Position numbers and translations under genes: made by a program. Shown in pieces: positions 1 to 17,900 of a stretch of 64,000 bases of DNA. Below the pieces are notes generated by a model that was not told the DNA's origin, did not search any database, and was given only the letters and a program-made list of their open reading frames with translations. The DNA comes from an uncultured virus (IMG/VR IMGVR_UViG_3300025305_000013) (Duplodnaviria; Heunggongvirae; Uroviricota; Caudoviricetes). The stretch lies in IMG/VR virus record IMGVR_UViG_3300025305_000013, one strand, 5' to 3'. How positions within the stretch are numbered: the first letter of the stretch is position 1; each line of letters opens with the position of its first letter.

Positions 1-6
1 GACTTT

Positions 7-35
7 AGTATACCTTAGTTTAACCCTTAGGTAAA
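7..35 (-). promoter_or_regulatory. sigma70-like early promoter firing leftwards out of the window
   Basis: Minus strand TTTACC (35-30), 17-nt spacer, TATACT (12-7); AT-rich UP-like tract upstream. Confidence 0.7.
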
Positions 36-50
36 GGTTTATTTTAAGTA

Positions 51-118
51 CGCGCCGCCGCCCGCGCCGCCCGGTTTTACGCCGCCCGCGTTTTACGCCG
101 CCGCCCGCGGGCGTAAAA
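51..118. repeat. GC-rich direct/inverted repeat block between divergent promoters
   Basis: Repeated GCCGCCCGCG and TTTTACGCC units ending in inverted GGGCGTAAAA. Confidence 0.7.
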
Positions 119-133
119 TAAAGTTAAAAACCC

Positions 134-162
134 TTTACTTAACGGCTAAGTTAAAGTATACT
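134..162 (+). promoter_or_regulatory. sigma70-like early promoter
   Basis: TTTACT(134-139)-N17-TATACT(157-162), A-tracts upstream, in front of ORF 249. Confidence 0.8.
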
Positions 163-248
163 AGGGTTAGTTAGGTTAATAACTTACTACCTAACTAAAT
201 AAAACTAAATAAACGTAAGTAACTAAAGTTAGTATAGGTATTAATACT

Positions 249-473
249 ATGGAAACTAAAAGTAAGGCTAAAGCCGTAAAAGTTAATTACGGCGGGCTTA
301 ACCCTAAAGCGGTTTATACCGCTACCGGTAAAATAGCCCGGGCTACCCATAACGCGGAGCGGCATACCGCGTTAAACGGTAAAACGGTAAAAGCGGCGCT
401 AGCTACCCGGTTAGTTAACGCCCAGGACATAAAGTACGACTTAGCTAAAGGCTTTATTACTTTGGAGGGGTAA
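249..473 (+). CDS. small basic early protein, DIKYD-family paralog 1 (putative DNA-binding)
   Basis: 74 aa with promoter and terminator; shares ARAxHNxERH...DIKYDLAKGFI with 1155 and 6550 ORFs. Confidence 0.85.
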   Translation: METKSKAKAVKVNYGGLNPKAVYTATGKIARATHNAERHTALNGKTVKAALATRLVNAQDIKYDLAKGFITLEG

Positions 474-483
474 TAGCCTAACG

Positions 484-511
484 GCCCGGGCTTAACCGCC
501 CGGGCTTTTTT
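484..511 (+). terminator. rho-independent terminator
   Basis: GCCCGGGC-ttaacc-GCCCGGGC followed by T6. Confidence 0.85.
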
Positions 512-532
512 ACGCCTAAATTTCGTGTTGAG

Positions 533-715
533 AAGCCGCCGCTAAAGCGGCGTAGCCCGCGGGCTACGCCTAGTTTTATTTAATTACGGTGGCACGGCTT
601 ACCCCCTTAGTAAACTATAAGCTACCTATTTAAGCTAGCTAGTAGGTAGGTAATACTTAACCTTAATTTATATATTAGGGTATTAGGTTTTTATTACCTA
701 CCTAACTAACTAACT
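533..715 (-). ncRNA. candidate early non-coding transcript
   Basis: Downstream of minus-strand promoter 750-722; 13-bp stem TAGGTAGGTAATA/TATTACCTACCTA; GC hairpins at 533-570; only a 3-codon ORF. Confidence 0.35.
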
Positions 716-721
716 AAACTA

Positions 722-750
722 AGTATACGGTAACTAGTACTAAAAGTAAA
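722..750 (-). promoter_or_regulatory. sigma70-like early promoter
   Basis: Minus strand TTTACT(750-745)-N17-TATACT(727-722), A-tracts upstream. Confidence 0.75.
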
Positions 751-851
751 GGTTTATTTTAACTTATTTTACCGCTACGTTGCGATCACATTGCGATGGC
801 ACTATAAGCCTACCAAAATCGCACGAGGTCCTGCGAAGTCTTATATACAAG

Positions 852-917
852 TAAGAGGGAACGTGGTTACAGATAAGAGGGAACGTGGTTACAGATAAGA
901 GGGGACATGGTTACAGA
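852..917 (+). repeat. 22-bp tandem repeat x3
   Basis: TAAGAGGGAACGTGGTTACAGA x2 plus one variant copy. Confidence 0.9.
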
Positions 918-1018
918 CACGACGTATCACCGAGGTATCCGCGAAGTTTCACCGAAGCATCCGCGAAGTTTCACCGAAGCATCCGTGAGGTATCACCGAG
1001 GCGTCCGCGAAGTTTCAC
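917..1018 (+). repeat. second 22-bp tandem repeat, about 4.5 copies
   Basis: CCGCGAAGTTTCACCGAAGCAT at 939 and 961, variants at 917, 983, 1005. Confidence 0.9.
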
Positions 1019-1080
1019 TATACTAGCTACCCAGTGAAATGATCTTGCGATCATACTGCTAAAATAAAATAAACTAATGC

Positions 1081-1109
1081 TTTACTTTTATACTAGGGTT
1101 TAGTATAAT
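1081..1109 (+). promoter_or_regulatory. sigma70-like early promoter
   Basis: TTTACT(1081-1086)-N17-TATAAT(1104-1109); UP-like AAAATAAAATAAA upstream. Confidence 0.85.
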
Positions 1110-1154
1110 GTCTATAATTAGGTAATAAAGCCTAATTAATATCGGAGAACGGTA

Positions 1155-1394
1155 ATGTCACAAAGTAAAAAAACAACTAGTAAGGTAAAAGTGTCAGAAG
1201 TAAAAATTAATTTAGGCGGGCTAAACCCCGATCAAATTATTCTGGCAACGGGTAAGTTAGCGCGGGCCCAACATAATGTCGAACGTCACACGGCGTTAAA
1301 CGGCATGTCAGTGCGAGAAGCGTTAGCTAGTCGCATGGTTAACGCCCAAGACATTAAGTATGACTTGGCACGCGCGTTTATTATTCTGGAATAG
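1155..1394 (+). CDS. small basic early protein, DIKYD-family paralog 2
   Basis: 79 aa, GGAG RBS; co-linear with ORF 249 (GGLNP..ATGK.ARA.HN.ERHTALNG..V..ALA.R.VNAQDIKYDLA). Confidence 0.85.
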   Translation: MSQSKKTTSKVKVSEVKINLGGLNPDQIILATGKLARAQHNVERHTALNGMSVREALASRMVNAQDIKYDLARAFIILE

Positions 1395-1405
1395 GGTAAT
1401 AAAAC

Positions 1406-1439
1406 GGGCCGGGTGGCACTAGCCGCCCGGCCTTTTTTT
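1406..1439 (+). terminator. rho-independent terminator
   Basis: GGCCGGGTGGC-acta-GCCGCCCGGCC then T7. Confidence 0.85.
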
Positions 1440-1449
1440 ACGCCCGTAA

Positions 1450-1940
1450 GTTGCGATCGCAACGATGATCCCATTAGACCTCCGGCCACAGTCCACGAAC
1501 CCTACTCCGTGGACCATGAACCAGAGGAAACCTGTTTACAGAGGTTTTTCTATGAATCATGAGCAAGAGATGATCACATTGTGATCACACTGGGATTACA
1601 AGGATGATGGCAGTGCGATCAAAGTCCATGGACCATGGTTTACATCACAATGGGAGAAGATAGAGGGACCATGGTTACCATGGTTCATGATTCATGGCTC
1701 AAGATCACAATGCCATCCCCCCTATTACAATAAATACAACTAATAGGATTTGGGGCATAAATCATGGTTCATGGCTTGTGGCCGGGGGGTTTTTTAACCG
1801 AGGTCCGTGGCCGGATCAAAAGTTAGTTCTATATATACGTCCTCAATTTCTAGAAGTCATATACTAAAACTCGCTTACATGCTTTATCACAGCTATCGGA
1901 GATGACCATCCCCGTACCATGAACCACAGTCCATGGTCAC
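1450..1940. other. non-coding CATG/GATC-dense block
   Basis: About 13 CATG and 7 GATC counted by eye; no ORF; lies between converging transcription units. Confidence 0.65.
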
Positions 1941-2106
1941 TATTACCTGCCAAAAGCCAATAGGTCGCTAATAGGTCAGCCAATAACCCACAAATAGCGA
2001 CCAACCACACGGACTCCAGACAAAAAGCTATTACCTTATTGGCAAAAAAGAAATTTTTTGTGAAAACAAAACTCTATTTTTCGCTCCACTACTAATAGAA
2101 GCAGCG

Positions 2107-2535
2107 TTATTCACCACTCCAAGCCCATCGCGAGGTATTTTCAGGCAGAGGAACCTTAAAATATTCAGTAGGAGCCGACGCCAGTAGGCAACCATATAAA
2201 GACATAGCTAAATAAAAGTATTCACCACTGGTTGATTGAGCAACTTCGAGAATACTATACGAACTACCGTCAGACACAGGAAAGTTACAGCTGTCATAGA
2301 TAGTATACCACTTTTCTTCACCGTTTAAGTCTTTCAGTAACTCTTCAAGATGTTTCTCATCATGCCCTTCACACTCACTGAAATGATAGCCTATTTTGAC
2401 ATGATTGCTGAGATGACTTAATATAGGTTTTAATACCGCAAGTACCCTTTGAGTTTCTGAGTCTTCTTTCTTATCCGAATCTTCTAGAAACTCGGATAAG
2501 CCGTTGTTTCTAAGTATATCTTCCTTACTAACCAT
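2107..2535 (-). CDS. hypothetical protein, paralog of 3156..3575
   Basis: 142 aa, GGGGAG RBS, behind repeated promoter motif. Confidence 0.75.
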   Translation of the reverse strand: MVSKEDILRNNGLSEFLEDSDKKEDSETQRVLAVLKPILSHLSNHVKIGYHFSECEGHDEKHLEELLKDLNGEEKWYTIYDSCNFPVSDGSSYSILEVAQSTSGEYFYLAMSLYGCLLASAPTEYFKVPLPENTSRWAWSGE

Positions 2536-2543
2536 TTCTTTCT

Positions 2544-2604
2544 CCCCACTACTTATTTACCGTACCCCTATAGTAAGGTAGAAGTTAGTCCTTCCCTAGG
2601 ACAA
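2544..2604 (-). promoter_or_regulatory. repeated phage-specific promoter/leader, copy 1
   Basis: Minus strand TGTCCTAGGGAAGGACTAACTTCTACCTTA..ATAGGGGTACGGTAAATAA..GTGGGGA. Confidence 0.75.
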
Positions 2605-2616
2605 TTGCAGTTATTG

Positions 2617-2871
2617 TTACCATAATCCTCCATCGAAGTCGAGTTCAACGTTGTACAGTTTCTCTATGGCAAAGCCTAAACTGCCAGTATAGTCAGGGCC
2701 ATCTCCGACAAACCAGCCACTTCCACCATGATACTTCTTATAGATGTCGTCTTTCACCAATTTAACATTAAAGCACTCACCATAATCCTCAGAGTGCTCC
2801 ATGATTTCTCGTAACTTTTTATTGGGACCCCCATGGTCCTCAATAATTCTTATTAGATCAAATTTATTCAT
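2617..2871 (-). CDS. hypothetical protein (start reassigned to MNKFDL)
   Basis: ATG at 2871 overlaps the end of ORF 2864..3073; the longer call overlaps that gene extensively. Confidence 0.65.
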   Translation of the reverse strand: MNKFDLIRIIEDHGGPNKKLREIMEHSEDYGECFNVKLVKDDIYKKYHGGSGWFVGDGPDYTGSLGFAIEKLYNVELDFDGGLW

Positions 2872-3073
2872 AAACCCAACACTCCCCGTTAGTCCACGTG
2901 CCGATATGTACACCGGAGCCGTTGTAATAGAGCGTAAGCCAGTTTGCAGCCCCCGTTCTTTCATCCCAGTCCAAAATTGTATCGGACGTATACCCCCGTT
3001 GACCACTTATACGCTTGGACAAGTAGTCTTCAAAGGTTGTTTTACTTTGCTTGGGTTGGTGTTTTGTTTTCAT
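2864..3073 (-). CDS. hypothetical protein
   Basis: 69 aa directly behind promoter copy 2 with GGGGA RBS. Confidence 0.7.
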   Translation of the reverse strand: MKTKHQPKQSKTTFEDYLSKRISGQRGYTSDTILDWDERTGAANWLTLYYNGSGVHIGTWTNGECWVYE

Positions 3074-3081
3074 AGTTTAGT

Positions 3082-3145
3082 TCCCCACTATTTATTTACC
3101 GTACCCCTATATAATAAGGTAGAAGTTAGTCCTTCCCTAGGACAA
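3082..3145 (-). promoter_or_regulatory. repeated phage-specific promoter/leader, copy 2
   Basis: Near-identical to 2544-2604. Confidence 0.75.
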
Positions 3146-3155
3146 CTCCTATTAT

Positions 3156-3575
3156 TCATTTAGCGACCCTCACAAACTGCGTATCAGCAGAAGCAAAGCT
3201 ACTGCCATGTAGACTAATGGCATAGTAAGTATAGTCTTCGGTTGACGTAGTTGTTATGATGTTATATCCACCAGACTTATGGTAAAAATCAAGAGGAGTA
3301 CGGTAAACTCTCTTCCATTTATCATAAGTAAATTCAGGTATATCTTCAGGCTCGCCATGCTCGTGAAATCCTATTTCACTAAAGTAATAACCGTATTCTC
3401 CAGGAATAAATAGTTTAAGCATATCGTGAATAATTTGCTGTTCCTTATTATATAGGGAGTAATCTTCCTCCTCTACCCACATTTCTTCCATGAATAAACC
3501 TTCTTTGGCATCGCTGGGTATTATCTCCCATCCGTCGACAATAATTCCATAGGTACTTACTAATTTATTAGTCAT
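3156..3575 (-). CDS. hypothetical protein, paralog of 2107..2535
   Basis: Shared GY.FSE and Y.Y.A.SL.G...ASA.T....V blocks. Confidence 0.7.
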   Translation of the reverse strand: MTNKLVSTYGIIVDGWEIIPSDAKEGLFMEEMWVEEEDYSLYNKEQQIIHDMLKLFIPGEYGYYFSEIGFHEHGEPEDIPEFTYDKWKRVYRTPLDFYHKSGGYNIITTTSTEDYTYYAISLHGSSFASADTQFVRVAK

Positions 3576-3581
3576 CTGTGG

Positions 3582-3818
3582 TCACCATATAAGTACTGAA
3601 GGAGGTTCTTTTAACACAGCTCTCTCACGACCAAAGCTATCTAGAGCTGCTAACACAGTAACAGATTCCGCACATTTATCACAAGGAACTTTATCCTCCT
3701 TTGCGAGACCAATTGCGTGATTATTCCCCAGCATAGGTTTACCACAAAGAGTTACACCTGAATTAGGGCGGCTCCAGTGTTGCTGACCTAACCTTTTTGT
3801 CCATTCAAATACATTCAT
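3582..3818 (-). CDS. small putative Zn-binding protein
   Basis: H..TLCG..CDKC pattern; AAGGGGTG RBS. Confidence 0.65.
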   Translation of the reverse strand: MNVFEWTKRLGQQHWSRPNSGVTLCGKPMLGNNHAIGLAKEDKVPCDKCAESVTVLAALDSFGRERAVLKEPPSVLIW

Positions 3819-3834
3819 TGTTACACCCCTTAAT

Positions 3835-3893
3835 TCCCCACTATTTACCTTACCTATATATTATAAGTAAGAATAAATTCCTTCCCTAGGACA
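3835..3893 (-). promoter_or_regulatory. repeated phage-specific promoter, copy 3
   Basis: TGTCCTAGGGAAGGA...TTACTTATAATATATAGGTAAGGTAAATAGTGGGGA. Confidence 0.7.
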
Positions 3894-3897
3894 TATG

Positions 3898-4101
3898 TTA
3901 GTATTCTATATAGTCATACTGAAAGACTTTGCGTAGTCGTGGAAGAAAGCGAGGAGAGAGCTCATTTGAGTCCAACATATCTCGCACATCGTCGTATGAC
4001 ATATATTTAAGAGCACAGCACAGCACATGATGACTGGTCACTGTCCCCTCCTCGACCAGTTGTAGTGCATACTCACGTGGATATTCTTCAAAGTTTACCA
4101 T
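3898..4101 (-). CDS. hypothetical phage protein
   Basis: 67 aa, GGAGA RBS; LKYMS.DDVRDMLD.NEL motif common in small phage proteins. Confidence 0.7.
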   Translation of the reverse strand: MVNFEEYPREYALQLVEEGTVTSHHVLCCALKYMSYDDVRDMLDSNELSPRFLPRLRKVFQYDYIEY

Positions 4102-4112
4102 TTGTTTCTCCG

Positions 4113-4313
4113 TTATTTGTTATCTATTACTTCCCCATTAACTACAGGAATAGTGTCTAAGTACTCGTCCATGTCAAGATCAGCGATGATTAGATTTAGC
4201 TTCTTTTCTAGCTTTTGTTGTTCTAGACTGGTATGCGCATAACCCGCATATTTTAACGAGTGGGCCAATATCTCTAGTTCCCTACGATTAAGGCAAAGCA
4301 CTTGATCGGACAT
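4113..4313 (-). CDS. hypothetical protein (start reassigned to MSDQ)
   Basis: GAGG RBS before ATG 4313; avoids overlap with upstream gene. Confidence 0.6.
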   Translation of the reverse strand: MSDQVLCLNRRELEILAHSLKYAGYAHTSLEQQKLEKKLNLIIADLDMDEYLDTIPVVNGEVIDNK

Positions 4314-4323
4314 AGCAAAAACC

Positions 4324-4563
4324 TCAGTACCAATCTTCAGGATGAGCCTTAACTTCTGCAATCTCATTCAAGATATCTAATGCTCCATTAATCTTATCTC
4401 TGAGTATGCGGTTATGCTCTCGACAGTCACTAAAGTTTAGTTCATAGTTATATATGAGATGATCTATGTGCTCGAGTTCTGCTCGTCCTATATTTTGTCG
4501 CAGGTACTCGCGTTGATGAGTGGCTAGCTCATCTATTTTCATCAGATAATTTTGCTTGCTCAT
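4324..4563 (-). CDS. hypothetical protein
   Basis: 79 aa, GGGGGAG RBS, behind promoter copy 4. Confidence 0.7.
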   Translation of the reverse strand: MSKQNYLMKIDELATHQREYLRQNIGRAELEHIDHLIYNYELNFSDCREHNRILRDKINGALDILNEIAEVKAHPEDWY

Positions 4564-4589
4564 TTCTCCCCCTACCTTGCTAACTTTAA

Positions 4590-4628
4590 CGTACCCTAAT
4601 AATAAGGTAGAAGGCGGTCCTTCCCTAG
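4590..4628 (-). promoter_or_regulatory. repeated phage-specific promoter, copy 4
   Basis: CTAGGGAAGGACCGCCTTCTACCTTATTATTAGGGTACG. Confidence 0.7.
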
Positions 4629-4662
4629 CATATATGTTATTAATCTATAAGGAATTTTTACA

Positions 4663-4812
4663 TTAGTCAAGCTGTTGAAGTCGTTTTTTAACCGCCTTTT
4701 CTTCTTTTGAAACTTCCGCTAATGAAGACTCAAGTTCTTTTCGTTTAGTTTCCAGTTCTCTTTCTCGTTTCATCAAATCGATACTCAAGACTGCATTTTG
4801 TTCGTCTTTCAT
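4663..4812 (-). CDS. small coiled-coil protein (49 aa, not in ORF track)
   Basis: MKDEQNAVLSIDLMKRERELETKRKELESSLAEVSKEEKAVKKRLQQLD fills the gap. Confidence 0.55.
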   Translation of the reverse strand: MKDEQNAVLSIDLMKRERELETKRKELESSLAEVSKEEKAVKKRLQQLD

Positions 4813-4828
4813 TATATTTTCTTTCTTT

Positions 4829-5227
4829 TTAGTTGTCATCATTGGACACTCTTCTCCTTAAATCACTTGTGCTAAATGAATGTTTCCTACTTGTATAGAA
4901 AATCTCGTGTAGACCTTCACCTGTAAAACTTATATTTGTATAATCTTCACCCACAAACCTGATATCAATGGGTGTAGACTCTAACAGATCTATAAGGCTT
5001 TCTTCAGTGTCGTAGGGTATTATCTCATCAACGTATTTAACTGCGTTTAGTTGAACAAACCTTTCGTAAACTGATTGGACAGGTGGATTCTTTTCTTTTC
5101 TGTCAATTGATGGATCTGTTTGTAAACCTACAATTAAATAATCACAATTTTCTTTTGTTTCTTTTAACATCACTATATGACCAGCATGTAACAAATCAAA
5201 ACAACCACAGGTAAAACCTTTTATCAT
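4829..5227 (-). CDS. glycerol-3-phosphate cytidylyltransferase-like nucleotidyltransferase (TagD/RfaE-II family)
   Basis: GCFDLLHAGH (HxGH) motif, LIVGL..D, VKYVDEII, C-terminal STSDLR. Confidence 0.85.
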   Translation of the reverse strand: MIKGFTCGCFDLLHAGHIVMLKETKENCDYLIVGLQTDPSIDRKEKNPPVQSVYERFVQLNAVKYVDEIIPYDTEESLIDLLESTPIDIRFVGEDYTNISFTGEGLHEIFYTSRKHSFSTSDLRRRVSNDDN

Positions 5228-5367
5228 TTAAGCCAATGTTCCACTTTTTGTTTTCTAGTTAGTTTCTTTTCTAATGCGCTAGCGGTTTTTTCCCATTTAG
5301 GAAGAGATTCTGTTTCCATTAGCGCATTTCTTTTTCACTTTTAACTTTCATTAAACTTCTCCTTTTA

Positions 5368-5515
5368 TTACATGTAAGGAGTTGTGTACCTGGAGCATTT
5401 CCTCCACTGGAGCGATTACCGGCGTGCCCTACCACGCCGTGATGGAGTTTCCTGAATGAAGGTGGTTACCATGACCTTCAAACGAGCCTTTCCGTACACA
5501 ACTCCTTGCATGTAA
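5368..5515. ncRNA. candidate structured RNA / regulatory leader
   Basis: 22-bp closing inverted repeat (5368-5389 / 5494-5515, one non-canonical pair) enclosing three hairpins. Confidence 0.5.
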
Positions 5516-5516
5516 C

Positions 5517-5556
5517 AATAAAAAAGTGGAGTCGCGGGCATTACACCCCACTCCTC
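5517..5556 (-). terminator. probable terminator
   Basis: Minus strand GGAGTGGGG...GCCCGCGACTCCAC followed by T6. Confidence 0.45.
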
Positions 5557-5596
5557 TGCGGAAAAACTAGGTAAAAACCGCAGCAGCGTACTGTAG

Positions 5597-5788
5597 TTAG
5601 TTAGTTTCGACCGTCATAAGAGACAATCGAGTGGGGATAACTACAGTCGAGTTACAGGTATCGCAACATTGGCCTTCGGCCACGGGTTGCGCATTATTAC
5701 CGGTAGTCCAATAAATGTCCCCTTTGGGAGTCTTCTTGTGTTCAATATTCCCTGAGCAAAGTATGCATTTATGCACTTCTTTAGCCAT
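5597..5788 (-). CDS. Zn-finger phage protein
   Basis: CILC...GNNAQPV.EGQCCDTCN..VVIP.RL motif; start reassigned to MAKE with GGAGGGGG RBS. Confidence 0.75.
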   Translation of the reverse strand: MAKEVHKCILCSGNIEHKKTPKGDIYWTTGNNAQPVAEGQCCDTCNSTVVIPTRLSLMTVETN

Positions 5789-6095
5789 TACTCCCCCTCC
5801 TGGAACGACTGGGTCCAACACGTCGAGCTTGTATTATACTGATGCCGTACTTCTCGTACCTTGCAAGCAGCTTACTGTCAACGTCATGGTCAGTAACCGA
5901 AACAGGTGTCACACTATGAGTGTCATACCAAGCCGCTATACACGATCGTAAGGTATTAGTTATACCGACGTCTCTCCCTAATTCCTTTTCGAGCACTCCG
6001 CGAATTCTTGCAAGGTTACTGCAAACGTCCTCCGCTTTAACACCAATAGCGTAACTGGCGTCAGTCATGCCGTAATTTTTCATTTTTCTAGTCAT
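5781..6095 (-). CDS. hypothetical protein
   Basis: 104 aa, GGGGGAAG RBS, behind promoter copy 5. Confidence 0.7.
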   Translation of the reverse strand: MTRKMKNYGMTDASYAIGVKAEDVCSNLARIRGVLEKELGRDVGITNTLRSCIAAWYDTHSVTPVSVTDHDVDSKLLARYEKYGISIIQARRVGPSRSRRGSNG

Positions 6096-6100
6096 TTTTC

Positions 6101-6166
6101 TTCCCCCTATACTTATTTATTTATAACGTTAGCTATTTTATAAGTGATGGGTTATTTTCCCTAGGA
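6101..6166 (-). promoter_or_regulatory. repeated phage-specific promoter, copy 5 (diverged)
   Basis: TTCCTAGGGAAAA...CACTTATAAAATAG..TAAATAAGTATAGGGGGA. Confidence 0.55.
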
Positions 6167-6172
6167 ATAATC

Positions 6173-6433
6173 CTAATAATCTAAGGGTTTTTGGGGTAAT
6201 TCCGCGTATAAAACTGTCCAAAGAAAAATCCTGAATGGATTTTTAGTGCCATCTACTAAGAATGGACTTCCTTGTTTCCCTATCCGATATAGACGAAAAC
6301 GACCAGAAGATTGACGCTCATAGAAAAATTTTCTTCTTATCTTTATAGTCTCTTCCTTAAAAGGTGACAATCGGTTATCCGGGGCCGTACTCGACCTCTC
6401 CGAATTTCGGGCTCGCTGTTTCCCGATTGTCAA
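6173..6433 (-). CDS. hypothetical protein, start uncertain
   Basis: Open frame on the coding strand filling a gap; no clear RBS. Confidence 0.35.
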   Translation of the reverse strand: MTIGKQRARNSERSSTAPDNRLSPFKEETIKIRRKFFYERQSSGRFRLYRIGKQGSPFLVDGTKNPFRIFLWTVLYAELPQKPLDY

Positions 6434-6483
6434 GCCTCAAGCATTATCCCGGTGAGGCTGTTTTGGGTTCCGTTGCTCCGGGC

Positions 6484-6546
6484 AAAAAAGAGGAGTGCAA
6501 TCATCACTGACCACAGGAGTGCAATCATCACTGACCACACCCCCCA
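6484..6546 (-). terminator. terminator carrying an exact 24-bp tandem duplication
   Basis: AGGAGTGCAATCATCACTGACCAC x2 (6491-6538); G:U-rich stem then T6 after gene 6550. Confidence 0.55.
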
Positions 6547-6549
6547 AAA

Positions 6550-6885
6550 TTATGACGTTAAAGTCATAAAGCCCTTCGCGAGATCGTAGCGAATATCGCG
6601 AGCATCCACCCTACGGGAAGCCAGCGCATCTCTCACGGTTAGCCCATCCATGTCTTCATGCCGCTCTTGGTTATGGGTTGCTCGAGCTATTTTATCTGCA
6701 TTATTCTTTAAAATAGCGTCAAGATCCAAACCCCGAGCACTTACGACTTTCTCGGCTGCTTCTTTAGCAATTTTTGCCAAAGGGCGTTTAGCCGAAGGAG
6801 CCTGTTTTGCGGATTCCTTTTTGCTAACAGTGCTCTTAGCCTTTTTAGAGGAGCCTATACTCCTCACTTTATTTGCTTTTGCCAT
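6550..6885 (-). CDS. DIKYD-family paralog 3 with Lys/Ala-rich N-terminal tail
   Basis: KIARATHNQERH..DGLTVRDALASRRV...DIRYDLAKGFM; AAAGGAGA RBS. Confidence 0.85.
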   Translation of the reverse strand: MAKANKVRSIGSSKKAKSTVSKKESAKQAPSAKRPLAKIAKEAAEKVVSARGLDLDAILKNNADKIARATHNQERHEDMDGLTVRDALASRRVDARDIRYDLAKGFMTLTS

Positions 6886-6989
6886 ACCTTTTCTCCTTTC
6901 TTATCTTCGATAATTACTTAACCGTACCAGTTAATAATAACGTGCGGGTAAAGTAAAGTAAATAATTGATCCAATTATTCTAGGTAATC

Positions 6990-7613
6990 CTAGTGAATTA
7001 TAGGGGGATCCTCGGTCTCCTCATAGTTGTCTAAACTTAGCTCACCACTAAAGTTATCTGCTTCTTCGTGAAAGCGCCACCGCATTTCTAACTCACGATG
7101 AAACCCAGGACCAGATAAATGACCCATCAACGCACGAATGATAGGTCTAGGCTCTGACCAAGCGGTCTTGAGGTTATAGGTAAGTTGCTTACCGTTTTTT
7201 ATAGTAGTGGGGCCGGGGAGAGGTCCAATTTTATACTCTACATCATAAGCATTCCATTTAGTCCCCCAATGAGCACAACACCACTCATACCAGCTGGCCG
7301 TACCGTGTTCTCTTTCTAAACGTAGGATAGTGAAAGAGTCAGTCTTATTCTTCATCAGCCACTCCCGACCAGGGAATGAAAGAATATGGTTCTCGGCTCC
7401 GTTTAATTCTTTACCCCACTTTTCAAGAGAGTAGTAGCAACGCTCTCCTTCTATTTCCACGTACTGTAAATCCTCTAATGGTTGGGGCATGGGTACTAAC
7501 TTATTGAAATCAAACATAGTATTTGTATTTTCGTTACGAAGAAAATCTAGAATATTTTCCACATCGTCTAACGAAGATTCAATAATTATTTGATTAAAAC
7601 AGTGATTTGGCAT
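6990..7613 (-). CDS. DUF1281/YubB ferredoxin-like domain protein
   Basis: MPNHC.N, FDFNKLVPMP, WYEWC..HWGTKWNA, TAWSEP motifs. Confidence 0.8.
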   Translation of the reverse strand: MPNHCFNQIIIESSLDDVENILDFLRNENTNTMFDFNKLVPMPQPLEDLQYVEIEGERCYYSLEKWGKELNGAENHILSFPGREWLMKNKTDSFTILRLEREHGTASWYEWCCAHWGTKWNAYDVEYKIGPLPGPTTIKNGKQLTYNLKTAWSEPRPIIRALMGHLSGPGFHRELEMRWRFHEEADNFSGELSLDNYEETEDPPIIH

Positions 7614-7695
7614 AGTTTTCTCCTAAACCTTATTTACTAGGGGCTTAACTTTACCTTTGATGGTTTTCAATCGCTAGGACTCTTGCGGTTCTTCT

Positions 7696-7917
7696 TTACT
7701 CCTCAATCAAAACATCCTCTAATATTCCTTGTTTATTCAGCCTGATTGTATGAGCCAACTTAGGTTCGTATATATCGTCAAATACTTTTCTGGCTTCTTC
7801 TTTGGAGTAGGGTTCTTCTCCGAATGCTTGTTTTTCTTTGGAATTTAACTCATACCATACAAGAAAATTTATTTTGTAGGTGTGGTTATTATTGTATTTG
7901 AATTCAATGTTCTTCAT
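7696..7917 (-). CDS. hypothetical protein
   Basis: 73 aa, GAGGGAG RBS, overlaps TerS end. Confidence 0.65.
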   Translation of the reverse strand: MKNIEFKYNNNHTYKINFLVWYELNSKEKQAFGEEPYSKEEARKVFDDIYEPKLAHTIRLNKQGILEDVLIEE

Positions 7918-8383
7918 ATTCTCCCTCTATAATTTTTCCTGCAGGTAGGATACCTCCTGTTTCGTAGTAAAGTTCCTTCATCCTTGTGAGAACTTCATCC
8001 TTGGACATAGTGTCAACACGGTTCACGGTCAATTCACTACGATTCACATAGAGTCCTGCAGCTTTTCCACGTGCAACTTCTGCACTTACCGCCGCCGACC
8101 AAGCCCCATTACGCACAGCCCCATCTCGTATGTCTTTTAGGTCTACTAGATGAGTGCCTAGAGTGAGGTTTACTTTATCGGCGGCACGAGTTTGTAATTC
8201 TTGAATACGATTCTGTACGTTTGGGTTAGTTTTGCCAGTGAGAACGGTTCCAGCACGCGCAGCATTTTTCTTACTGTACCCGGCAGCTTTTGCTGCATCT
8301 ACTTTTCTCATACCTTTGGCTACATTCTGAGCAAACTTTTCTTGCTTGGGGGTGAGTTTTTTCTTACTCACGCCTTCCTCCAA
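7904..8383 (-). CDS. terS: terminase small subunit-like HTH protein
   Basis: LTPKQEKFAQ...AAKAAGYSKKNA...NPNVQNRIQEL N-terminal HTH typical of TerS. Confidence 0.75.
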   Translation of the reverse strand: MEEGVSKKKLTPKQEKFAQNVAKGMRKVDAAKAAGYSKKNAARAGTVLTGKTNPNVQNRIQELQTRAADKVNLTLGTHLVDLKDIRDGAVRNGAWSAAVSAEVARGKAAGLYVNRSELTVNRVDTMSKDEVLTRMKELYYETGGILPAGKIIEGEYEEH

Positions 8384-8613
8384 ACTCGAAGTTTCCAGTC
8401 TCCGTTTTCTTCTATTATCTTACGAGTGACAAATTTCTTGTTATTCCTTTTAGCGTAGTTACTAACCGCAACTCTTATACGCTGTATACCTGTAGAGTCC
8501 CATTCTTCTACAGTAAAACACTGACCAACTTCCATTAAATGTAAGTTGTATTTATTATTGCGAGGAACAGAAGGGGGAATAGGATACCCTTCTTCAATTG
8601 AAGATACTTTCAT
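8368..8613 (-). CDS. small phage DNA-binding-like protein, paralog A
   Basis: IEEGYPIP...KY....MEVGQCF...LRVWR. Confidence 0.75.
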   Translation of the reverse strand: MKVSSIEEGYPIPPSVPRNNKYNLHLMEVGQCFTVEEWDSTGIQRIRVAVSNYAKRNNKKFVTRKIIEENGDWKLRVWRKA

Positions 8614-8630
8614 TACTTTAACTCCTGGAT

Positions 8631-8879
8631 TTAAACATTCTCATCAGAAACCCACACTCTAATACCCCCTTCTCCTTGGCGACCTTCTTGTCTTTGAAGG
8701 GACTTTTTCCCGAGGTGACGCGTAATACAATTACGCAAAGCTGCGGCGTCATGTTTATTAGCCGTCAAAACAGAATCCCCCACCTCCATAGAGAGGACCA
8801 CCTCTGCAAACTTTGACCAAAACGCTCTTTTTCCTTTCTTGGGTATGGGGATATGTTTGTCCACTTTTAATTGAGCCAT
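8631..8879 (-). CDS. small phage DNA-binding-like protein, paralog B
   Basis: VDKHIPIP...MEVGDSV...IRVW; same family as 8368. Confidence 0.75.
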   Translation of the reverse strand: MAQLKVDKHIPIPKKGKRAFWSKFAEVVLSMEVGDSVLTANKHDAAALRNCITRHLGKKSLQRQEGRQGEGGIRVWVSDENV

Positions 8880-8915
8880 TTTTTTCTCCAGCTATTACTT
8901 TATTTAGGTATAGCT

Positions 8916-8944
8916 AGGGTATTATACCTTTACCTTAGAGTAAA
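8916..8944 (-). promoter_or_regulatory. possible sigma70-like promoter
   Basis: TTTACT(8944-8939)-N17-TACCCT(8921-8916) in a TG/TC-poor spacer. Confidence 0.45.
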
Positions 8945-8961
8945 GGAAGATGGTTATTTTG

Positions 8962-9675
8962 TTAATTTTCAGCTGATCCTCCATACAACCAAAATACTAA
9001 CAAGTATCGGTCTTTATTTCCCTTCACCGGTAGGCCACGGTGCATGTGCGTAAAGCTCGGGAAAAATAAAGCATGACCATTCGGTAGCGGTTCCACAATC
9101 GTACGACCATGAAACTCAGTTCCTCCACCTTCGTAACTACCTGTATTTAAAGGAACAACCATACTTATATCTGCGGTTTGGTCGTGGTGCCAGGCACCTT
9201 GTTTCTTATCCCTTATGTTATAGTTCGCAATTTGTATAGTGCTAGCAGCATGAGAATATCTTTGCCACACGGACATAAAGATAGGGTTCATGACATTAAG
9301 AACTACCCCAAGCATTGAGTTGAATAGTTCGGGGCATTTTTCGTGCAATATTATTTCAGGTATCTGTCTTAACTGATCTTCGTTTTCGTTGGGATTGAAA
9401 CCAAAGTGAGCCTTCATGTTTTCTATTTCATCTAACATAGTAGTGCAAAACTCATCAGTAAATAAAGGGACAGAATATATATCATGACCGTGGTTAGTGA
9501 CATAGTCCTGAAGGTGATTCTTTATGTCTGCTTGACCCATACTTACCTGAAATTCTTGTAGACTCTCCATAGCATCTTTCGTAAATTCTAGAGTCATTTT
9601 ATTTAGCATCCACTCCGCTTTTATAGTTAATAGAAAGTTTTTAACTAGATAGGGTGGCGTTGGAGGAGTTTCCAT
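8962..9675 (-). CDS. 2OG-Fe(II) oxygenase (lysyl/prolyl hydroxylase-like)
   Basis: HHD..., LN..YEGGGTEF, HMHRGLPV, RYLLV facial triad and Arg. Confidence 0.85.
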   Translation of the reverse strand: METPPTPPYLVKNFLLTIKAEWMLNKMTLEFTKDAMESLQEFQVSMGQADIKNHLQDYVTNHGHDIYSVPLFTDEFCTTMLDEIENMKAHFGFNPNENEDQLRQIPEIILHEKCPELFNSMLGVVLNVMNPIFMSVWQRYSHAASTIQIANYNIRDKKQGAWHHDQTADISMVVPLNTGSYEGGGTEFHGRTIVEPLPNGHALFFPSFTHMHRGLPVKGNKDRYLLVFWLYGGSAEN

Positions 9676-9752
9676 TTAAGGTCCACTAATTTTTCTTAGT
9701 AACTTGATACTAGGCTACCGGGTTATAAGAAGTATGCTAAGAAGGGCTGTAA

Positions 9753-10301
9753 TTAGCCCACAATTTTAGCATACCCTTGACGTATATCGTATTTAATATC
9801 TGCCATTGAAATCTGGGGGTCTTGGCAGATTGTAGAGACTGATAGATTTCCAGTGTAGAATTTTCGCAATCTATTAAGATTCTTTTTCGATCTAGGTTGC
9901 TTTCCTGTGTAGCCTATCTTTTCAGTTCCATTGAGATGCATTTTATTTCGTGGCTTGGATACTTTTTGTGGCTTGGATACTTTTACAGAAGGTTCACCAA
10001 GGCTATATGAAGAATAATCCTTACGAGTAGGTTTTACTGCCTTTTTTCTAAAGTACTCCCAAAAAATCGATCTAGCTTCTTCTTTGGTTTTAAATTCTTT
10101 TGTTTTACCTGTATGTAACTTCCAAATTTCCGTAGCCTTTTTAAGAGAAAGCCAATGAGGACAGGCATACTCTTTTGGATTTCCCATGTGGGCAGACCCG
10201 CCCTTTAGATCCTTAATTTCAAATTCTGAAGTAATTACTATTCTTCTCCAGTCTATGCCGTCAGGAGTATTGTTCACAAAAGTAATAAACTCGTAACTCA
10301 T
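9753..10301 (-). CDS. basic protein with C-terminal DIKYD-like domain (paralog 4)
   Basis: C-terminus ..TGK..R..ADIKYDIRQGYAKI; AAAGGAGA RBS. Confidence 0.7.
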   Translation of the reverse strand: MSYEFITFVNNTPDGIDWRRIVITSEFEIKDLKGGSAHMGNPKEYACPHWLSLKKATEIWKLHTGKTKEFKTKEEARSIFWEYFRKKAVKPTRKDYSSYSLGEPSVKVSKPQKVSKPRNKMHLNGTEKIGYTGKQPRSKKNLNRLRKFYTGNLSVSTICQDPQISMADIKYDIRQGYAKIVG

Positions 10302-14771: not shown

Positions 14772-15782
14772 TTAGTTAGATTTTCTACCCAACCATTCCC
14801 AACAAGCCTTACGCCAATCATCTGCTTTACATTCTTGTATTTCAATCATTGCTTCTTCAATCTGCCCTGATTTATATAACCACCAAGAATTTTGTATCGG
14901 TGCGGCAACGTGTGTAAAGAAAGGGTCTTCATATATAGTATGGTCAAATGGTTTTCTATCGAAGAATCCCAATAGATCCAAGTCCCATATTTGTATATCT
15001 GTATTGACTATAGGGTACGGTTTTACCATTTCTGCTGTATAGGGGTTTAAAGCAAGAAATCTTTTTTGTGTAAAAAAGTCCATTGCGTCTTGTTCTATAA
15101 ATTTATTAAGCAATGGTTCAAACACCACATTATAAGCATGATAGTTATCGCTGATTTGATAATACTTACCCACAGATACACCAATAGCCGTAGCCATATA
15201 TTCCTGTAGCATAGACATATGCACTACGTTTGCTCCGTAAGCCCCCCAAATTATGTCATTGGATCTATTACAAACAGTCATTTGTAATTTTCCCTCTAGG
15301 TCTATCTTGAAATAGACACAAGTATTACAAGGGACATCAGCACCGTCTCTATCTAAATCTTCAACAGGATCCCACATTTGTAATACAGATCTTCTATCTT
15401 CTGGATTCTCTTTTAGTCTTTTAATTATGATTGGTATTTGATCACGAAAAAACCAAGACCGCCATCTCCAACCATAAGCACCGTGCAAGGTTTGGCCGTC
15501 ATCGCTGAATTCTTTCATTCTTTTGTTATATTGATAAACAAATTCGAGGTCATACCCTCCCTTTATCATCCACAAGGCTTCCATAAAATGAAAGAACGGG
15601 TTTGCGTTACGCTCTTTCCAAAATAAAACCCTCTCTTTCGGCTTACTGTAGACGGTAGTTACCGGCGTAGGAGCCTGAAAAACTACTCCATTTCGGCTCT
15701 CTGCTTTTACTCCATTTGTATATAAAAAATCAAGACCCCGTAAAAGAGCATCATGTGCGTTCCTTACATTAAGAACTTTCAT
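14772..15782 (-). CDS. thymidylate synthase-like protein, probable dUMP hydroxymethylase
   Basis: SRNG, NPFFHFMEALW, GAYG.RWR, DRR, catalytic PC, RSNDIIWGAYGAN (Asn specificity residue indicates dUMP), NYHAY. Confidence 0.85.
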   Translation of the reverse strand: MKVLNVRNAHDALLRGLDFLYTNGVKAESRNGVVFQAPTPVTTVYSKPKERVLFWKERNANPFFHFMEALWMIKGGYDLEFVYQYNKRMKEFSDDGQTLHGAYGWRWRSWFFRDQIPIIIKRLKENPEDRRSVLQMWDPVEDLDRDGADVPCNTCVYFKIDLEGKLQMTVCNRSNDIIWGAYGANVVHMSMLQEYMATAIGVSVGKYYQISDNYHAYNVVFEPLLNKFIEQDAMDFFTQKRFLALNPYTAEMVKPYPIVNTDIQIWDLDLLGFFDRKPFDHTIYEDPFFTHVAAPIQNSWWLYKSGQIEEAMIEIQECKADDWRKACWEWLGRKSN

Positions 15783-16551
15783 TTATTCCGTCCTTATATG
15801 CTTTTTTCCAACTAATTCTCACATCTTTACGGGGTAAACCGCCCCAAGCAGTTTTAGTTTGTTTTTCCACAAGTTTAACATGATCAGGGTGAAGGTCGTG
15901 TAGTCTTTGCGCCCCTTCATTGTGGACGTCAATTGTGCGCCACTCACTACAGCCTCCTTCTGCGTTTGATGATTTTTGCCCTTGAGCGTAGTAATAGCTT
16001 ACCTTATTTGCTTTACCTTCTCTTAATAGTTGTAGGGCAATGTCAAAGTCTTCCATTACTCTAGTTCTTCCCCACTCCACACTATCAGGGAATACTTCTA
16101 GGTTATATCCCAACACACGCATATACCGAGTATTTTCTACCGATAAGTTTTTTACATGGTTGTTACCTTCTCTTGCGCTTATACCAACATGAGCATAACC
16201 CTGATCCATCCACTCATCTAGCAAGCCGAATAGAGCAGGATATTCGCTCGATTGAAGATATCGAAGGTGCCAATCAATAGGACTTTTACGAATATAGAAC
16301 CGTAAGTCATCATCCAACATAACTATACGAGGGTCTTCTACATTTTCTACTATATATTTACGTTTTGGACCAATACCTATGCAATCACTAGGTACAACCA
16401 TTCTAGGTGTGTCTGGGTAGTTGTGGTATTTATCTTTTTCATCTTCATCTATTACTAATACAACTGATCCGTCTCTCTGCATTTCTTTAGGAAACCACCT
16501 TAAAGTTTCCTGATTATAGGGTCTTCCCCTTGTGGGAATATATATTTTCAT
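15769..16551 (-). CDS. GT-A fold DNA glycosyltransferase-like protein (TET/JBP-associated GT type)
   Basis: IYIPTRGR, IG.KR..I, MLDDD, EDFD..LQLL..G, SNAEGGCS motifs; within modification cassette. Confidence 0.8.
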   Translation of the reverse strand: MKIYIPTRGRPYNQETLRWFPKEMQRDGSVVLVIDEDEKDKYHNYPDTPRMVVPSDCIGIGPKRKYIVENVEDPRIVMLDDDLRFYIRKSPIDWHLRYLQSSEYPALFGLLDEWMDQGYAHVGISAREGNNHVKNLSVENTRYMRVLGYNLEVFPDSVEWGRTRVMEDFDIALQLLREGKANKVSYYYAQGQKSSNAEGGCSEWRTIDVHNEGAQRLHDLHPDHVKLVEKQTKTAWGGLPRKDVRISWKKAYKDGINESS

Positions 16552-16563
16552 ACTTTCTCCAGT

Positions 16564-16740: not shown

Positions 16741-16742
16741 TT

Positions 16743-17051: not shown

Positions 17052-17900
17052 TTATTTTTCCCCTGCATATTTATATTTTGATCTAGGTCTGCCTTCCCCT
17101 AAACGAACTCTTTCGTACTTATCAAATTCACAAAGACAATGCTCTATTTCTCTCATCTCCAGTTCTTTATCGAGAAGGAATAGAATATTCTGGTTAAAGT
17201 TAGTGAGTAAACTTTTCATTTCTTGGGTAAGTTGATCTTCTTTAATAGCTTGCTTAAGAGATCTACCGTGTATTCTATTTAACCCTCGTTTTGCTCCTGG
17301 ACCAGCGTTAGCCCAAGTCATAATGTCTTCAGCATTTTCTAGGTGTCGGGTGTGACGTAAATCGGTAACGACTTCATAGGACATAAACCCGCTGAAACCA
17401 GCATAGGGGAGATAATTTTTCCAAGTTTCTTTAAGGGAGTGCGGTATTATTTCAGGAGGGTTATGATACACAGGGGTGAGAATTTTATCTACAGTTTGTT
17501 GTACTTTAGTCCCTCCTAAAGTACCGGTTAACATATACGCTCCTGTGTAAACTTTTTCTCCTCTGTCCATTCTAGCTTGCATAATTTCTTTAGTTCTTTC
17601 AGGGTTCCAGTAATAAGGGAAGCCTATTTCTTCTAGGGTATCTGGCCAATTTATTTGGCGAGCCATGGACATGGCAAAAGGCAAATTTGGATGATCGGCG
17701 TAGGGTTCCCTCCAATTTTTTCGTATCCAAATAGTGACCTTGTCTAACTCCCTGAATACATTACAGAAACTGTAGGTTTGAAGTATCTTATCCTCAGTCC
17801 ATGGAAAAGGTTCTCCCTCCTGACGTTTTAGATAAATCCTATGTCTTTCGTTTATATAGCGAAAGAAACGATGCTCCGCTGCTTCTATGTCTGAAGTCAT
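17052..17900 (-). CDS. 5-hmdU DNA kinase-like protein (aGPT-Pplase1 helical family)
   Basis: ERHRIY.KR..G.P.PWT.D.IL..Y.FCNVFRE.D, YTGAY, GFMSYEVVTD, GPGA.RGL, IEH.LCEFDKY.R. Confidence 0.85.
   Translation of the reverse strand: MTSDIEAAEHRFFRYINERHRIYLKRQEGEPFPWTEDKILQTYSFCNVFRELDKVTIWIRKNWREPYADHPNLPFAMSMARQINWPDTLEEIGFPYYWNPERTKEIMQARMDRGEKVYTGAYMLTGTLGGTKVQQTVDKILTPVYHNPPEIIPHSLKETWKNYLPYAGFSGFMSYEVVTDLRHTRHLENAEDIMTWANAGPGAKRGLNRIHGRSLKQAIKEDQLTQEMKSLLTNFNQNILFLLDKELEMREIEHCLCEFDKYERVRLGEGRPRSKYKYAGEK

What the first reader, a model, noticed from the sequence alone, without database searches (positions are those of the whole stretch)
249..10301. Four-member paralog family of small basic proteins (HNxERH...DI[KR]YDLAKGF), three as stand-alone transcription units
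Seen: ORFs 249, 1155 and 6550 and the C-terminus of 9753 share the domain. ORFs 249 and 1155 each have their own consensus promoter and terminator. ORF 6550 carries a histone-like Lys/Ala tail. Inference: heavy investment in an uncharacterized immediate-early protein suggests host takeover, anti-defence, or a reader/protector of modified DNA that then permits transcription of the rest of the genome.
Basis: partly seen in the sequence, partly recalled or inferred. Interest (0 to 1): 0.75.

Follow-up and report, generated by a model that had tools for sequence, protein, structure and literature searches.

The report
Modification-free gene for modified-DNA reader
A marine bacterial virus that probably decorates its thymines chemically keeps one small gene almost free of the letter pairs that get decorated, next to a patch crowded with them, and that gene's protein has relatives in dinoflagellates, whose DNA also carries modified thymine, which suggests an undescribed protein family that reads modified DNA at the start of infection.

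Summary
The four paralogs are real. The window is an HTVC023P-type marine podovirus with a thymidine-modification cassette (dUMP hydroxymethylase, TAGT glycosyltransferase, aGPT-Pplase) but no 5-hmdU kinase. Bases 1-780 (promoter, ORF 249, terminator) hold 19 TG/TC/CA/GA dinucleotides against about 190 expected, and ORF 249 uses 11 where its protein forces 9 and codon usage predicts 44. TG/TC is the published target of thymidine hypermodification in other phages. The depletion is confined to the short stand-alone paralog class (50 of 61 genes, against 0 of 77 longer paralogs). A non-coding GATC/CATG array, the most TG/TC-rich patch of the genome, lies beside it in 8 of 9 genomes. The domain is winged-helix-like and has no described family. 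It was found in 10 cassette-bearing phage genomes and in none of 11 without the cassette, sits directly before the aGPT-Pplase gene of phiJL001, and occurs as tandem repeats in dinoflagellates. Best reading: a reader of modified thymine, made first from an unmodified unit. Binding, timing and base chemistry are untested. phiJL001 and four known modifiers have no such island.

The parts
1..780 (.). Island almost free of TG/TC (= CA/GA) dinucleotides: predicted to escape thymidine hypermodification
   Evidence: O/E 0.11 (CA/TG) and 0.09 (GA/TC) against about 1.0 elsewhere; 19 observed, 190 expected; longest free run 249 bp
134..162 (+). sigma70-like promoter TTTACT-17-TATACT of ORF 249, free of TG/TC
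   Evidence: element recurs upstream of homologs
249..473 (+). Short paralog 1 (74 aa), single winged-helix-like domain, codons chosen to avoid TG/TC
   Evidence: 11 sites, minimum possible 9, expected 44.1 +/- 4.3, z -7.7; model pLDDT 81.5
483..516 (+). Intrinsic terminator-like hairpin after ORF 249
   Evidence: stem 483-506, then T run; 0 TG/TC sites in 474-520
7..35 (-). Second promoter-like site of the same type, pointing out of the window towards the late genes
   Evidence: inverted repeat I3
510..750 (-). Third promoter-like site (750-722) followed by an ORF-less, TG/TC-poor hairpin-rich stretch; possible small RNA
   Evidence: fold of 510-716: -71.7 kcal/mol, z -3.9; conservation not tested
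846..1029 (.). Tandem 22-bp and 11/22-bp repeats between the two short units; ordinary TG/TC density
   Evidence: D7, D1; density 0.256 in 781-1050
1081..1109 (+). Promoter TTTACT-17-TATAAT of ORF 1155
   Evidence: 9 TG/TC sites in 1051-1154
1155..1394 (+). Short paralog 2 (79 aa), mildly TG/TC-depleted
   Evidence: 43 observed, 55.8 expected, z -2.8
1406..1443 (+). Terminator-like hairpin after ORF 1155
1446..2000 (.). Non-coding GATC/CATG array: the most TG/TC-rich 150-nt window of the genome starts at 1557; predicted patch of dense, symmetric modification
   Evidence: 17 GATC+CATG per 450 nt against a genome mean of 2.6; longest ATG ORF over it 57 aa
6550..6885 (-). Tailed paralog (111 aa): N-terminal Lys/Ala-rich tail plus domain; own TTTACT promoter at 6962-6934; not depleted
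   Evidence: z -1.4
9753..10301 (-). Long paralog (182 aa): N-terminal region plus C-terminal domain; not depleted. By eye its middle resembles the N-terminal part of phiJL001 gp18
   Evidence: z +0.5; resemblance seen, not scored
14772..15782 (-). dUMP hydroxymethylase-type thymidylate synthase
   Evidence: phrog_5131 E 2e-122; 45-48% to YuA-like enzymes, several annotated deoxyuridylate hydroxymethyltransferase
15769..16551 (-). TAGT glycosyltransferase
   Evidence: PF20691 E 4e-23
17052..17900 (-). aGPT-Pplase-type DNA transferase fold protein (Pfam HMUDK_hel)
   Evidence: PF18723 E 2e-50

Best explanation
The domain is a small, basic, winged-helix-like DNA-binding module that recognises DNA with 5-hydroxymethyluracil or its hypermodified derivative. 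The phage replaces T by hmU and further modifies T in TG/TC context (inferred from gene content and from the depletion pattern). Virion DNA then arrives as a poor or dangerous template. One self-contained unit (promoter, short gene, terminator) next to the late/early junction is kept nearly free of TG/TC on both strands, so it stays unmodified and host sigma70 RNA polymerase can transcribe it at once. The short protein then binds modified DNA, probably first the adjacent GATC/CATG array, and lets infection go on. Most likely it makes modified DNA usable for transcription; masking it from modification-dependent nucleases or releasing a second step of DNA entry fit too. The tailed and long paralogs, made later from normally modified genes, would coat or process the replicated DNA. 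SHOWN: the paralogs, synonymous avoidance of TG/TC, the adjacent array, the co-occurrence pattern, homology to phiJL001 gp18 and to dinoflagellate repeats, the predicted fold. INFERRED: the base chemistry and its TG/TC specificity in this lineage (my odds 0.85), DNA binding (0.8), preference for modified T (0.6), early timing, and what is licensed.
For: (1) 19 TG/TC/CA/GA in 1-780 against 190; ORF 249 near the theoretical minimum. (2) These four are the most depleted dinucleotides in 61 short genes after codon control (CA 0.50, TG 0.50, TC 0.66, GA 0.75; AT 0.77 follows) and lie at 0.94-1.11 in 77 longer paralogs. (3) TG/TC is the inferred target in M6, ViI and phiW-14 (PMC6449724, passages). 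(4) 50 of 61 short genes use under 0.7 of the optional sites; 0 of 40 tailed and 0 of 37 long genes do. (5) Depletion follows the transcription unit, not the boundary: in G004 the stretch between boundary and promoter is TG/TC-rich, in G006 it ends at the promoter's upstream edge. (6) The most TG/TC-rich window lies within 2 kb of the junction palindrome in 8 of 9 genomes; GATC 7-fold, CATG 6-fold enriched. (7) 0 of 30 records held the family without the aGPT-Pplase gene; 11 complete or near-complete genomes lack both. (8) phiJL001 gp18 is the top structural hit (E 1.1e-3, TM 0.62), a sequence homolog, and overlaps the aGPT-Pplase gene, with TAGT and hydroxymethylase genes downstream. (9) Tandem repeats in Karlodinium and Durusdinium proteins; dinoflagellates replace 12-68% of T by hmU (PMC11071213, passages). 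(10) Fusions to SAP, HNH and (weakly) T5orf172 domains. (11) Bulky base modifications typically block bacterial RNAP, while hmU alone does not (PMC11550810, introduction).
Against: No binding, expression or base-composition data. The published TG/TC preference is ascribed to the 5-hmdU kinase, and this lineage seems to lack it (PF18748 in 0 of 4 cassette genomes tested, positive in LKO4; no candidate P-loop by pattern in the window or G002-G006), so the match of specificity is unexplained. phiW-14, ViI, PaMx11 and LKO4 have no island (longest free run 24-38 bp), and these four and M6 have no detectable family gene. phiJL001 has cassette and domain but no island (lowest O/E 1.03). The only short gene of G003 is not depleted (1.04) and 11 of 61 short genes use 0.7 or more. 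Both strands are depleted about equally, which a pure template-strand block would not predict. Nine of the ten family-bearing genomes are close kin (capsid 89% or more where scored), so co-occurrence rests on few independent events. Dinoflagellate hmU showed no sequence motif in Breviolum. Fold matches are weak (best Z 5.0).
Confidence: 0.55

Rival explanations
1. General nucleoid- or histone-like DNA-binding protein with no preference for modified bases. The unit is TG/TC-free only because unmodified DNA gives the high early output that a stoichiometric coating protein needs; dinoflagellates took the gene as one more viral chromatin protein.
For: Basic charge and Lys/Ala tails; SAP fusion and tandem repeats; graded depletion from 0 to above 1; no motif for dinoflagellate hmU.
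Against: Does not explain the absence from 11 cassette-less genomes, the place of gp18 in the phiJL001 cassette, or the adjacent GATC/CATG array.
Confidence: 0.18
2. Protein inhibitor of modification-dependent nucleases (works like anti-END1 or the T4 GmrSD inhibitors). The island is the first DNA to enter and lacks modified T so that it is not cut before the inhibitor is made; paralogs cover different nucleases.
For: Hypermodified phages encode small inhibitors of END nucleases (PMC12191111, passages). Both strands are depleted. The nearest short gene lies 249-581 bp from the junction palindrome in 40 of 41 loci. Repeated duplication of the short gene.
Against: A genome end here is not shown: contigs bridge the junction in 3 of 4 runs. 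TG/TC-rich DNA can lie between junction and promoter (G004). An inhibitor role does not explain the eukaryotic repeats or SAP fusion. Similarity to anti-END1 was not tested.
Confidence: 0.13
3. The island and array are a replication or packaging element (origin or pac), and the protein is its binding factor; TG/TC content there reflects the needs of DNA synthesis or cleavage, or of host Dam-type GATC recognition.
For: Fixed place next to a palindrome that also lies at the terminase gene start in HTVC027P and DSL-LC04; GATC clusters are typical of origins in Dam-positive hosts (recalled); depth step 22 to 64 at the boundary in one run.
Against: CATG is as enriched as GATC; the depletion tracks promoter-to-terminator units in either orientation; five cassette-less relatives reach only 4-8 GATC+CATG per 450 nt near terL against 11-25.
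Confidence: 0.08
4. Host-takeover factor that attacks or silences DNA with ordinary T (works like T4 Alc, recalled), sparing modified phage DNA.
For: Strong stand-alone unit; restriction to cassette-bearing phages; HNH fusion in one homolog.
Against: Gives no reason for the gene to avoid TG/TC, since incoming sites would be modified; no catalytic motif seen in the 63-residue domain; tandem copies in dinoflagellate genomes.
Confidence: 0.06

Closest known systems
phiJL001 gp18 (AAT69494.1), Mesyanzhinovviridae
   Same: True homolog of the C-terminal domain (HMM E 3e-5; hhalign 90.9%; Foldseek E 1.1e-3); same kinase-less cassette of aGPT-Pplase, TAGT and hydroxymethylase.
   Different: Uncharacterised itself; single copy inside the cassette; no TG/TC-free island.
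HTVC023P-type podoviruses, clades with TS plus aG/PT-PPlase1 (PMC9599517)
   Same: Capsid 69% to HTVC023P; cassette beside the polymerase and Curli-type genes as described there (Curli reading of window genes recalled, not scanned).
   Different: The passages and section read do not mention this protein family, the island or the array; supplements not seen.
Thymidine-hypermodifying phages M6, LKO4 (YuA-like), PaMx11, ViI, phiW-14
   Same: dUMP hydroxymethylase and aGPT-Pplase; TG/TC target.
   Different: They have the 5-hmdU kinase, no detectable family gene and, in the four scanned, no island.
JBP1 J-DNA binding domain of kinetoplastids (PMC3141245)
   Same: Functional analogue: helix-turn-helix domain that prefers glucosyl-hmU DNA 10,000-fold (start of abstract).
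   Different: 160 residues; not among Foldseek, VIA or sequence hits; no homology shown.
SPO1 TF1 and T4 MotA (recalled, not looked up)
   Same: Small phage proteins that prefer modified phage DNA and steer transcription.
   Different: TF1 is HU-like and MotA has another architecture; no Pfam or PHROG match to either.
T5 first-step-transfer region and T7 left end
   Same: A small first-expressed region that prepares the cell for the rest (T5: start of abstract, 10.64898/2026.04.02.716235; T7 recalled).
   Different: Those regions avoid host restriction sites (recalled); this one avoids the phage's own modification sites, and staged entry is not shown here.

Membership tests
Any described Pfam or PHROG family | HMM match over cut-off | tested here: not met
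   Best Pfam E 0.0085, under cut-off; best PHROG E 0.035; no PDB sequence match under E 0.75; Atlas top cluster is unnamed viral hypothetical protein.
Winged helix-turn-helix superfamily | Three helices with a flanking two- or three-strand sheet | tested here: met
   Model E22-25, H33-42, H47-52, H58-67, E70-73, pLDDT 81.5.
Winged helix-turn-helix superfamily | Significant structural match to a solved member | tested here: inconclusive
   Many of the 50 VIA rows are winged-helix proteins by their titles (fold class partly recalled) but best Z is 5.0, rmsd 2.9, 60 aligned; no Foldseek PDB match under E 2.7.
Modified-base reader (JBP1-like function) | Selective binding to hmU or hypermodified T | not testable with these tools
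   Only genomic context; conserved K28, N35, R38, D60, Y63, D64 in 84-96% of 94 domains.
DUF3489 (C-terminal domain of LKO4 gp10, the positional counterpart of gp18) | Profile similarity to the domain | tested here: not met
   hhalign probability 0.1% against one sequence; a deeper profile was not tried.
M6/ViI-type thymidine hypermodification pathway | dUMP hydroxymethylase and aGPT-Pplase present | tested here: met
M6/ViI-type thymidine hypermodification pathway | 5-hmdU DNA kinase present | tested here: not met
   PF18748 in 0 of 3 relatives and not in phiJL001; found in LKO4. The window was checked only by P-loop pattern and Pfam scan of 29 ORFs, and does not hold the whole genome.
Anti-END or GmrSD inhibitors | Homology or binding to the nuclease | not tested
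   Only read about.
Dinoflagellate chromatin proteins DVNP and HLP | Sequence family match | tested here: inconclusive
   No Pfam hit of any kind for P0021, P0026, P0027 at E 0.05; no direct comparison made.

The most novel reading that the evidence does not exclude
A phage epigenetic start switch: a gene kept unmodifiable by sequence design, beside an array kept maximally modifiable, encodes a reader of hydroxymethyluracil-type thymine that turns on the rest of the modified genome. The same domain was taken up by dinoflagellates, where tandem copies act as readers of their abundant 5-hmU, for which no reader turned up in the papers seen here.
Probability: 0.35. Interest if true: 0.93.

Novelty: categorically new. 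Interest (0 to 1): 0.8.

Why it matters
How hypermodified phage DNA is transcribed is called underexplored (PMC11550810), and the function of dinoflagellate 5-hmU is open (PMC11071213). A 63-residue candidate reader shared by both makes each directly testable with a binding assay and could give a reagent for mapping hmU. The sequence signature is useful on its own: a dinucleotide-free unit reveals the likely target of a DNA modification in an uncultured phage from sequence alone. It also points to a kinase-less thymidine modification pathway of unknown chemistry in abundant marine phages.

Tried and rejected
Low complexity or amino-acid bias as cause of the depletion: rejected by synonymous-codon control; none of 22 other window ORFs went below z -2.5. 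TTTACT as proof of avoidance: weak, since cassette-less HTVC023P has 8 such sites and T4 early promoters have a similar -35 (recalled). Distance from the palindrome as a predictor of depletion: no overall correlation (rho -0.02, n 46), though the nearer copy is the more depleted in 5 of 5 two-copy loci. Genome terminus at the island: not shown; only contigs were available, 3 of 4 runs bridge it. Expression: no RNA holder listed. A TAGT-like glycosyltransferase fused to the domain in P0087: suggested by eye, not supported by BLAST (E 0.21 and 2.4), a 25-sequence HMM, Pfam or folding (pLDDT 30); dropped. tblastn of ORFs 249 and 9753 in GenBank phages: none, yet phiJL001 is a homolog, so this search is insensitive. 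Prokaryote genomes: 7 pattern matches, none confirmed. Search for longer forms gave 1 protein among 7997 scored. gp18 searches gave only close relatives. Atlas search with a dinoflagellate repeat: no usable hit. JBP1, TF1 and MotA are absent from the fold lists, which does not exclude likeness. Carin-5 paper (part 1 of 6 read) and Lydia paper (passages) added nothing. The Iyer-type survey of base-modification domains could not be obtained, so a prior naming of this domain there is not excluded. No complex prediction was run.


Full report
OBSERVATION. The four ORFs exist as described and align at 66, 51 and 26% to ORF 249. An HMM iterated on 28 viral loci finds them at E 3e-33 to 4e-21 and shows three classes in relatives: short (63-88 aa, domain only), tailed (Lys/Ala-rich N-terminus) and long (extra N-terminal region). 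No Pfam, PHROG or PDB sequence family matches. ORFs 249 and 1155 have promoter- and terminator-like sites; ORF 6550 has the promoter only.

THE PHAGE. The capsid is 69% identical to HTVC023P. Beside the polymerase lie a dUMP-hydroxymethylase-type thymidylate synthase, a TAGT glycosyltransferase and an aGPT-Pplase-type gene, as described for some HTVC023P-type clades (PMC9599517, passages and section 7). The 5-hmdU kinase of the M6/ViI pathway was not found in three relatives or phiJL001, and was found in the control LKO4. The modified base of this lineage is therefore unknown. The window does not hold the whole genome: L229 extends 2.5 kb beyond position 1.

THE ISLAND. Bases 1-780 have O/E 0.11 for CA/TG and 0.09 for GA/TC against about 1.0 elsewhere: 19 sites against 190 expected. 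That is, T followed by G or C is avoided on both strands. PMC6449724 (abstract and passages) infers exactly TG/TC as the modified context in M6, ViI and phiW-14. In ORF 249, 11 sites remain; the protein forces 9 and genome codon usage predicts 44.1 +/- 4.3 (z -7.7). ORF 1155 is at z -2.8, ORFs 6550 and 9753 are normal, and 22 other window ORFs range from -2.5 to +2.7. Over 138 distinct family genes with an ATG and a complete domain (partial, start-less and duplicate DNA sequences were dropped; many are close relatives), 50 of 61 short genes use under 0.7 of the optional sites (median 0.48), against 0 of 40 tailed and 0 of 37 long genes. Values of 0.17 or less occur in several separate branches of a 94-domain tree, beside weakly depleted sisters. 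Among nine complete or near-complete cassette-bearing genomes of this lineage, the deepest 300-nt minimum falls on a short family gene in seven, second deepest in G011, and not at all in G003; G008's gene is only a weak match (E 0.002) and G002's minimum (0.60) is no lower than those of controls. Eight cassette-less genomes have minima of 0.56-0.87. The depleted stretch runs from the promoter's upstream edge to the terminator in either orientation.

POSITION AND ARRAY. A palindrome (core AAAATTTTGCAAAAA) and usually a G-rich run mark the junction between the early region and the late genes; the palindrome also lies at the terminase gene start in HTVC027P and DSL-LC04. The nearest short gene lies 249-581 bp from it in 40 of 41 loci; in 5 of 5 two-copy loci the nearer copy is the more depleted, but overall distance does not predict depletion. 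The single most TG/TC-rich 150-nt window of the genome lies 0.6-1.8 kb from the palindrome in 8 of 9 cassette-bearing genomes, and 9 kb or more away in the two controls that have the palindrome. These arrays hold 11-25 GATC+CATG per 450 nt against genome means of 1.6-3.1, and 4-8 at best near terL in five cassette-less relatives; no ORF over 81 aa covers them (the G011 stretch was picked by eye). GATC and CATG are the two palindromic 4-mers around a central AT that place a TG/TC thymine on both strands. A physical genome end at this junction is plausible but not shown.

DISTRIBUTION. All 5 near-complete genomes reached through the family have the aGPT-Pplase gene. Of 30 records reached mostly through capsid or polymerase (two, G024 and phiJL001, through the family), 10 have the family and all 10 have that gene; G009 and ten GenBank phages have neither; LKO4 and three half-complete records have the gene alone. 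M6, PaMx11, ViI and phiW-14 have no family match. Most positives are close kin, so this is not an independent count. Two distant occurrences carry more weight. First, phiJL001 gp18 is the best structural hit among viral models, a sequence homolog and overlaps the aGPT-Pplase gene of the same kinase-less cassette. Second, the profile search over 1.84 billion representatives gave 34 hits, among them proteins of the dinoflagellates Karlodinium veneficum (2 repeats) and Durusdinium trenchii (3 repeats). They score 47-57 bits against 6.6 for the best of 1005 decoys; profile-profile probability 97.2%, E 4e-11. Further Durusdinium copies and unnamed proteins followed, one with a SAP domain; others fuse the domain to HNH or T5orf172 domains. 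Dinoflagellates replace 12-68% of T by hmU; no motif was found in Breviolum (PMC11071213, passages; PMC11572971, passages). Only two named species were found, and other eukaryotes were not surveyed in depth.

FOLD. The model of ORF 249 (30 sequences, pLDDT 81.5) is strand-helix-helix-helix-strand. Foldseek finds nothing significant in the PDB; VIA lists many winged-helix proteins at Z 5.0 or less. K28, N35, R38, G44, V47, D60, Y63, D64 and G68 are kept in 84-96% of 94 domains, dinoflagellate repeats included.

MECHANISM. The simplest account is that modified T in TG/TC hinders first expression, so one unit is kept unmodifiable, and its product binds modified DNA, the neighbouring array first, and lets infection go on. 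Bulky modifications block bacterial RNAP while hmU is tolerated (PMC11550810, abstract and introduction). Against a general rule: phiW-14, ViI, PaMx11 and LKO4 have no island, nor has phiJL001; depletion is graded and strand-symmetric; and the TG/TC preference was ascribed to a kinase that this lineage seems to lack. Rivals are a non-selective nucleoid protein, an inhibitor of modification-dependent nucleases (PMC12191111, passages), an origin or packaging element, and host shut-off.

NOVELTY. Paper searches for an island free of modification sites, for this lineage's early genes and for a shared phage-dinoflagellate domain (listings only) gave nothing on it, and the scan's earlier notes were empty. 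The library lacks most subscription papers, one relevant survey was not held, and no supplements were read. The cassette and the lineage are known; the family, the island and the array appear not to be.

VERDICT. Observation confirmed and extended. Interest 0.8.

Noticed in passing
window 2552-2616, 3093-3157, 3842-3906, 4581-4645, 6157-6181 (-): A second promoter-like family: a CCTAGGGAA-type box about 19 bp before a -10 hexamer, with a TG/TC-free stretch from the -10 element into the leader; candidate activator-dependent promoters. The box is not conserved in most relatives.
   Followed up: partly
window 23281-23670: The divergent intergenic region between the replication genes and the SNF2 helicase is the second lowest TG/TC stretch (O/E 0.57); what appears to be the same region is low in G002, G003, G004, G005, G006 and G011.
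   Followed up: partly
window 510-750 (-): Promoter-like site followed by an ORF-less, stably folding, TG/TC-poor stretch; possible small RNA.
   Followed up: partly
window 14772-17900: Modification cassette without the 5-hmdU kinase, shared with phiJL001: TAGT plus aGPT-Pplase may make an undescribed, possibly glycosylated thymine. A cytidylyltransferase-like gene at 4829-5227 could supply an activated donor.
   Followed up: partly
L049:11832-12287 and L047:8411-9094: The N-terminal part of gp18 matches small proteins of Epa5-like, Kyle, MTx and RsoM2USA phages and shares a PHROG with LKO4 gp10, which precedes an amino acid:DNA transferase gene; possibly a second modification-linked domain.
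   Followed up: no
L047 (LKO4) 2878, 23885, 25916, 31068, 31814, 33093: Six promoters of this 64% GC phage share TTTACTTC at -35, close to the element upstream of the family genes.
   Followed up: no
protein P0087: 594-aa unnamed protein with a stretch like a methyl-CpG-binding domain, a possible glycosyltransferase region and one family domain; both resemblances are by eye and unsupported by the tests run.
   Followed up: partly
window 38169-44209: Adenylate cyclase, FecR, Curli-like CsgG/CsgF genes by recalled motifs, matching the cluster described in PMC9599517; not scanned.
   Followed up: no
L229 locus 4046-4059 (window about 1550): Contigs of four runs carry about 590 extra bases inside the GATC/CATG array: a variable insertion, content not read.
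   Followed up: no
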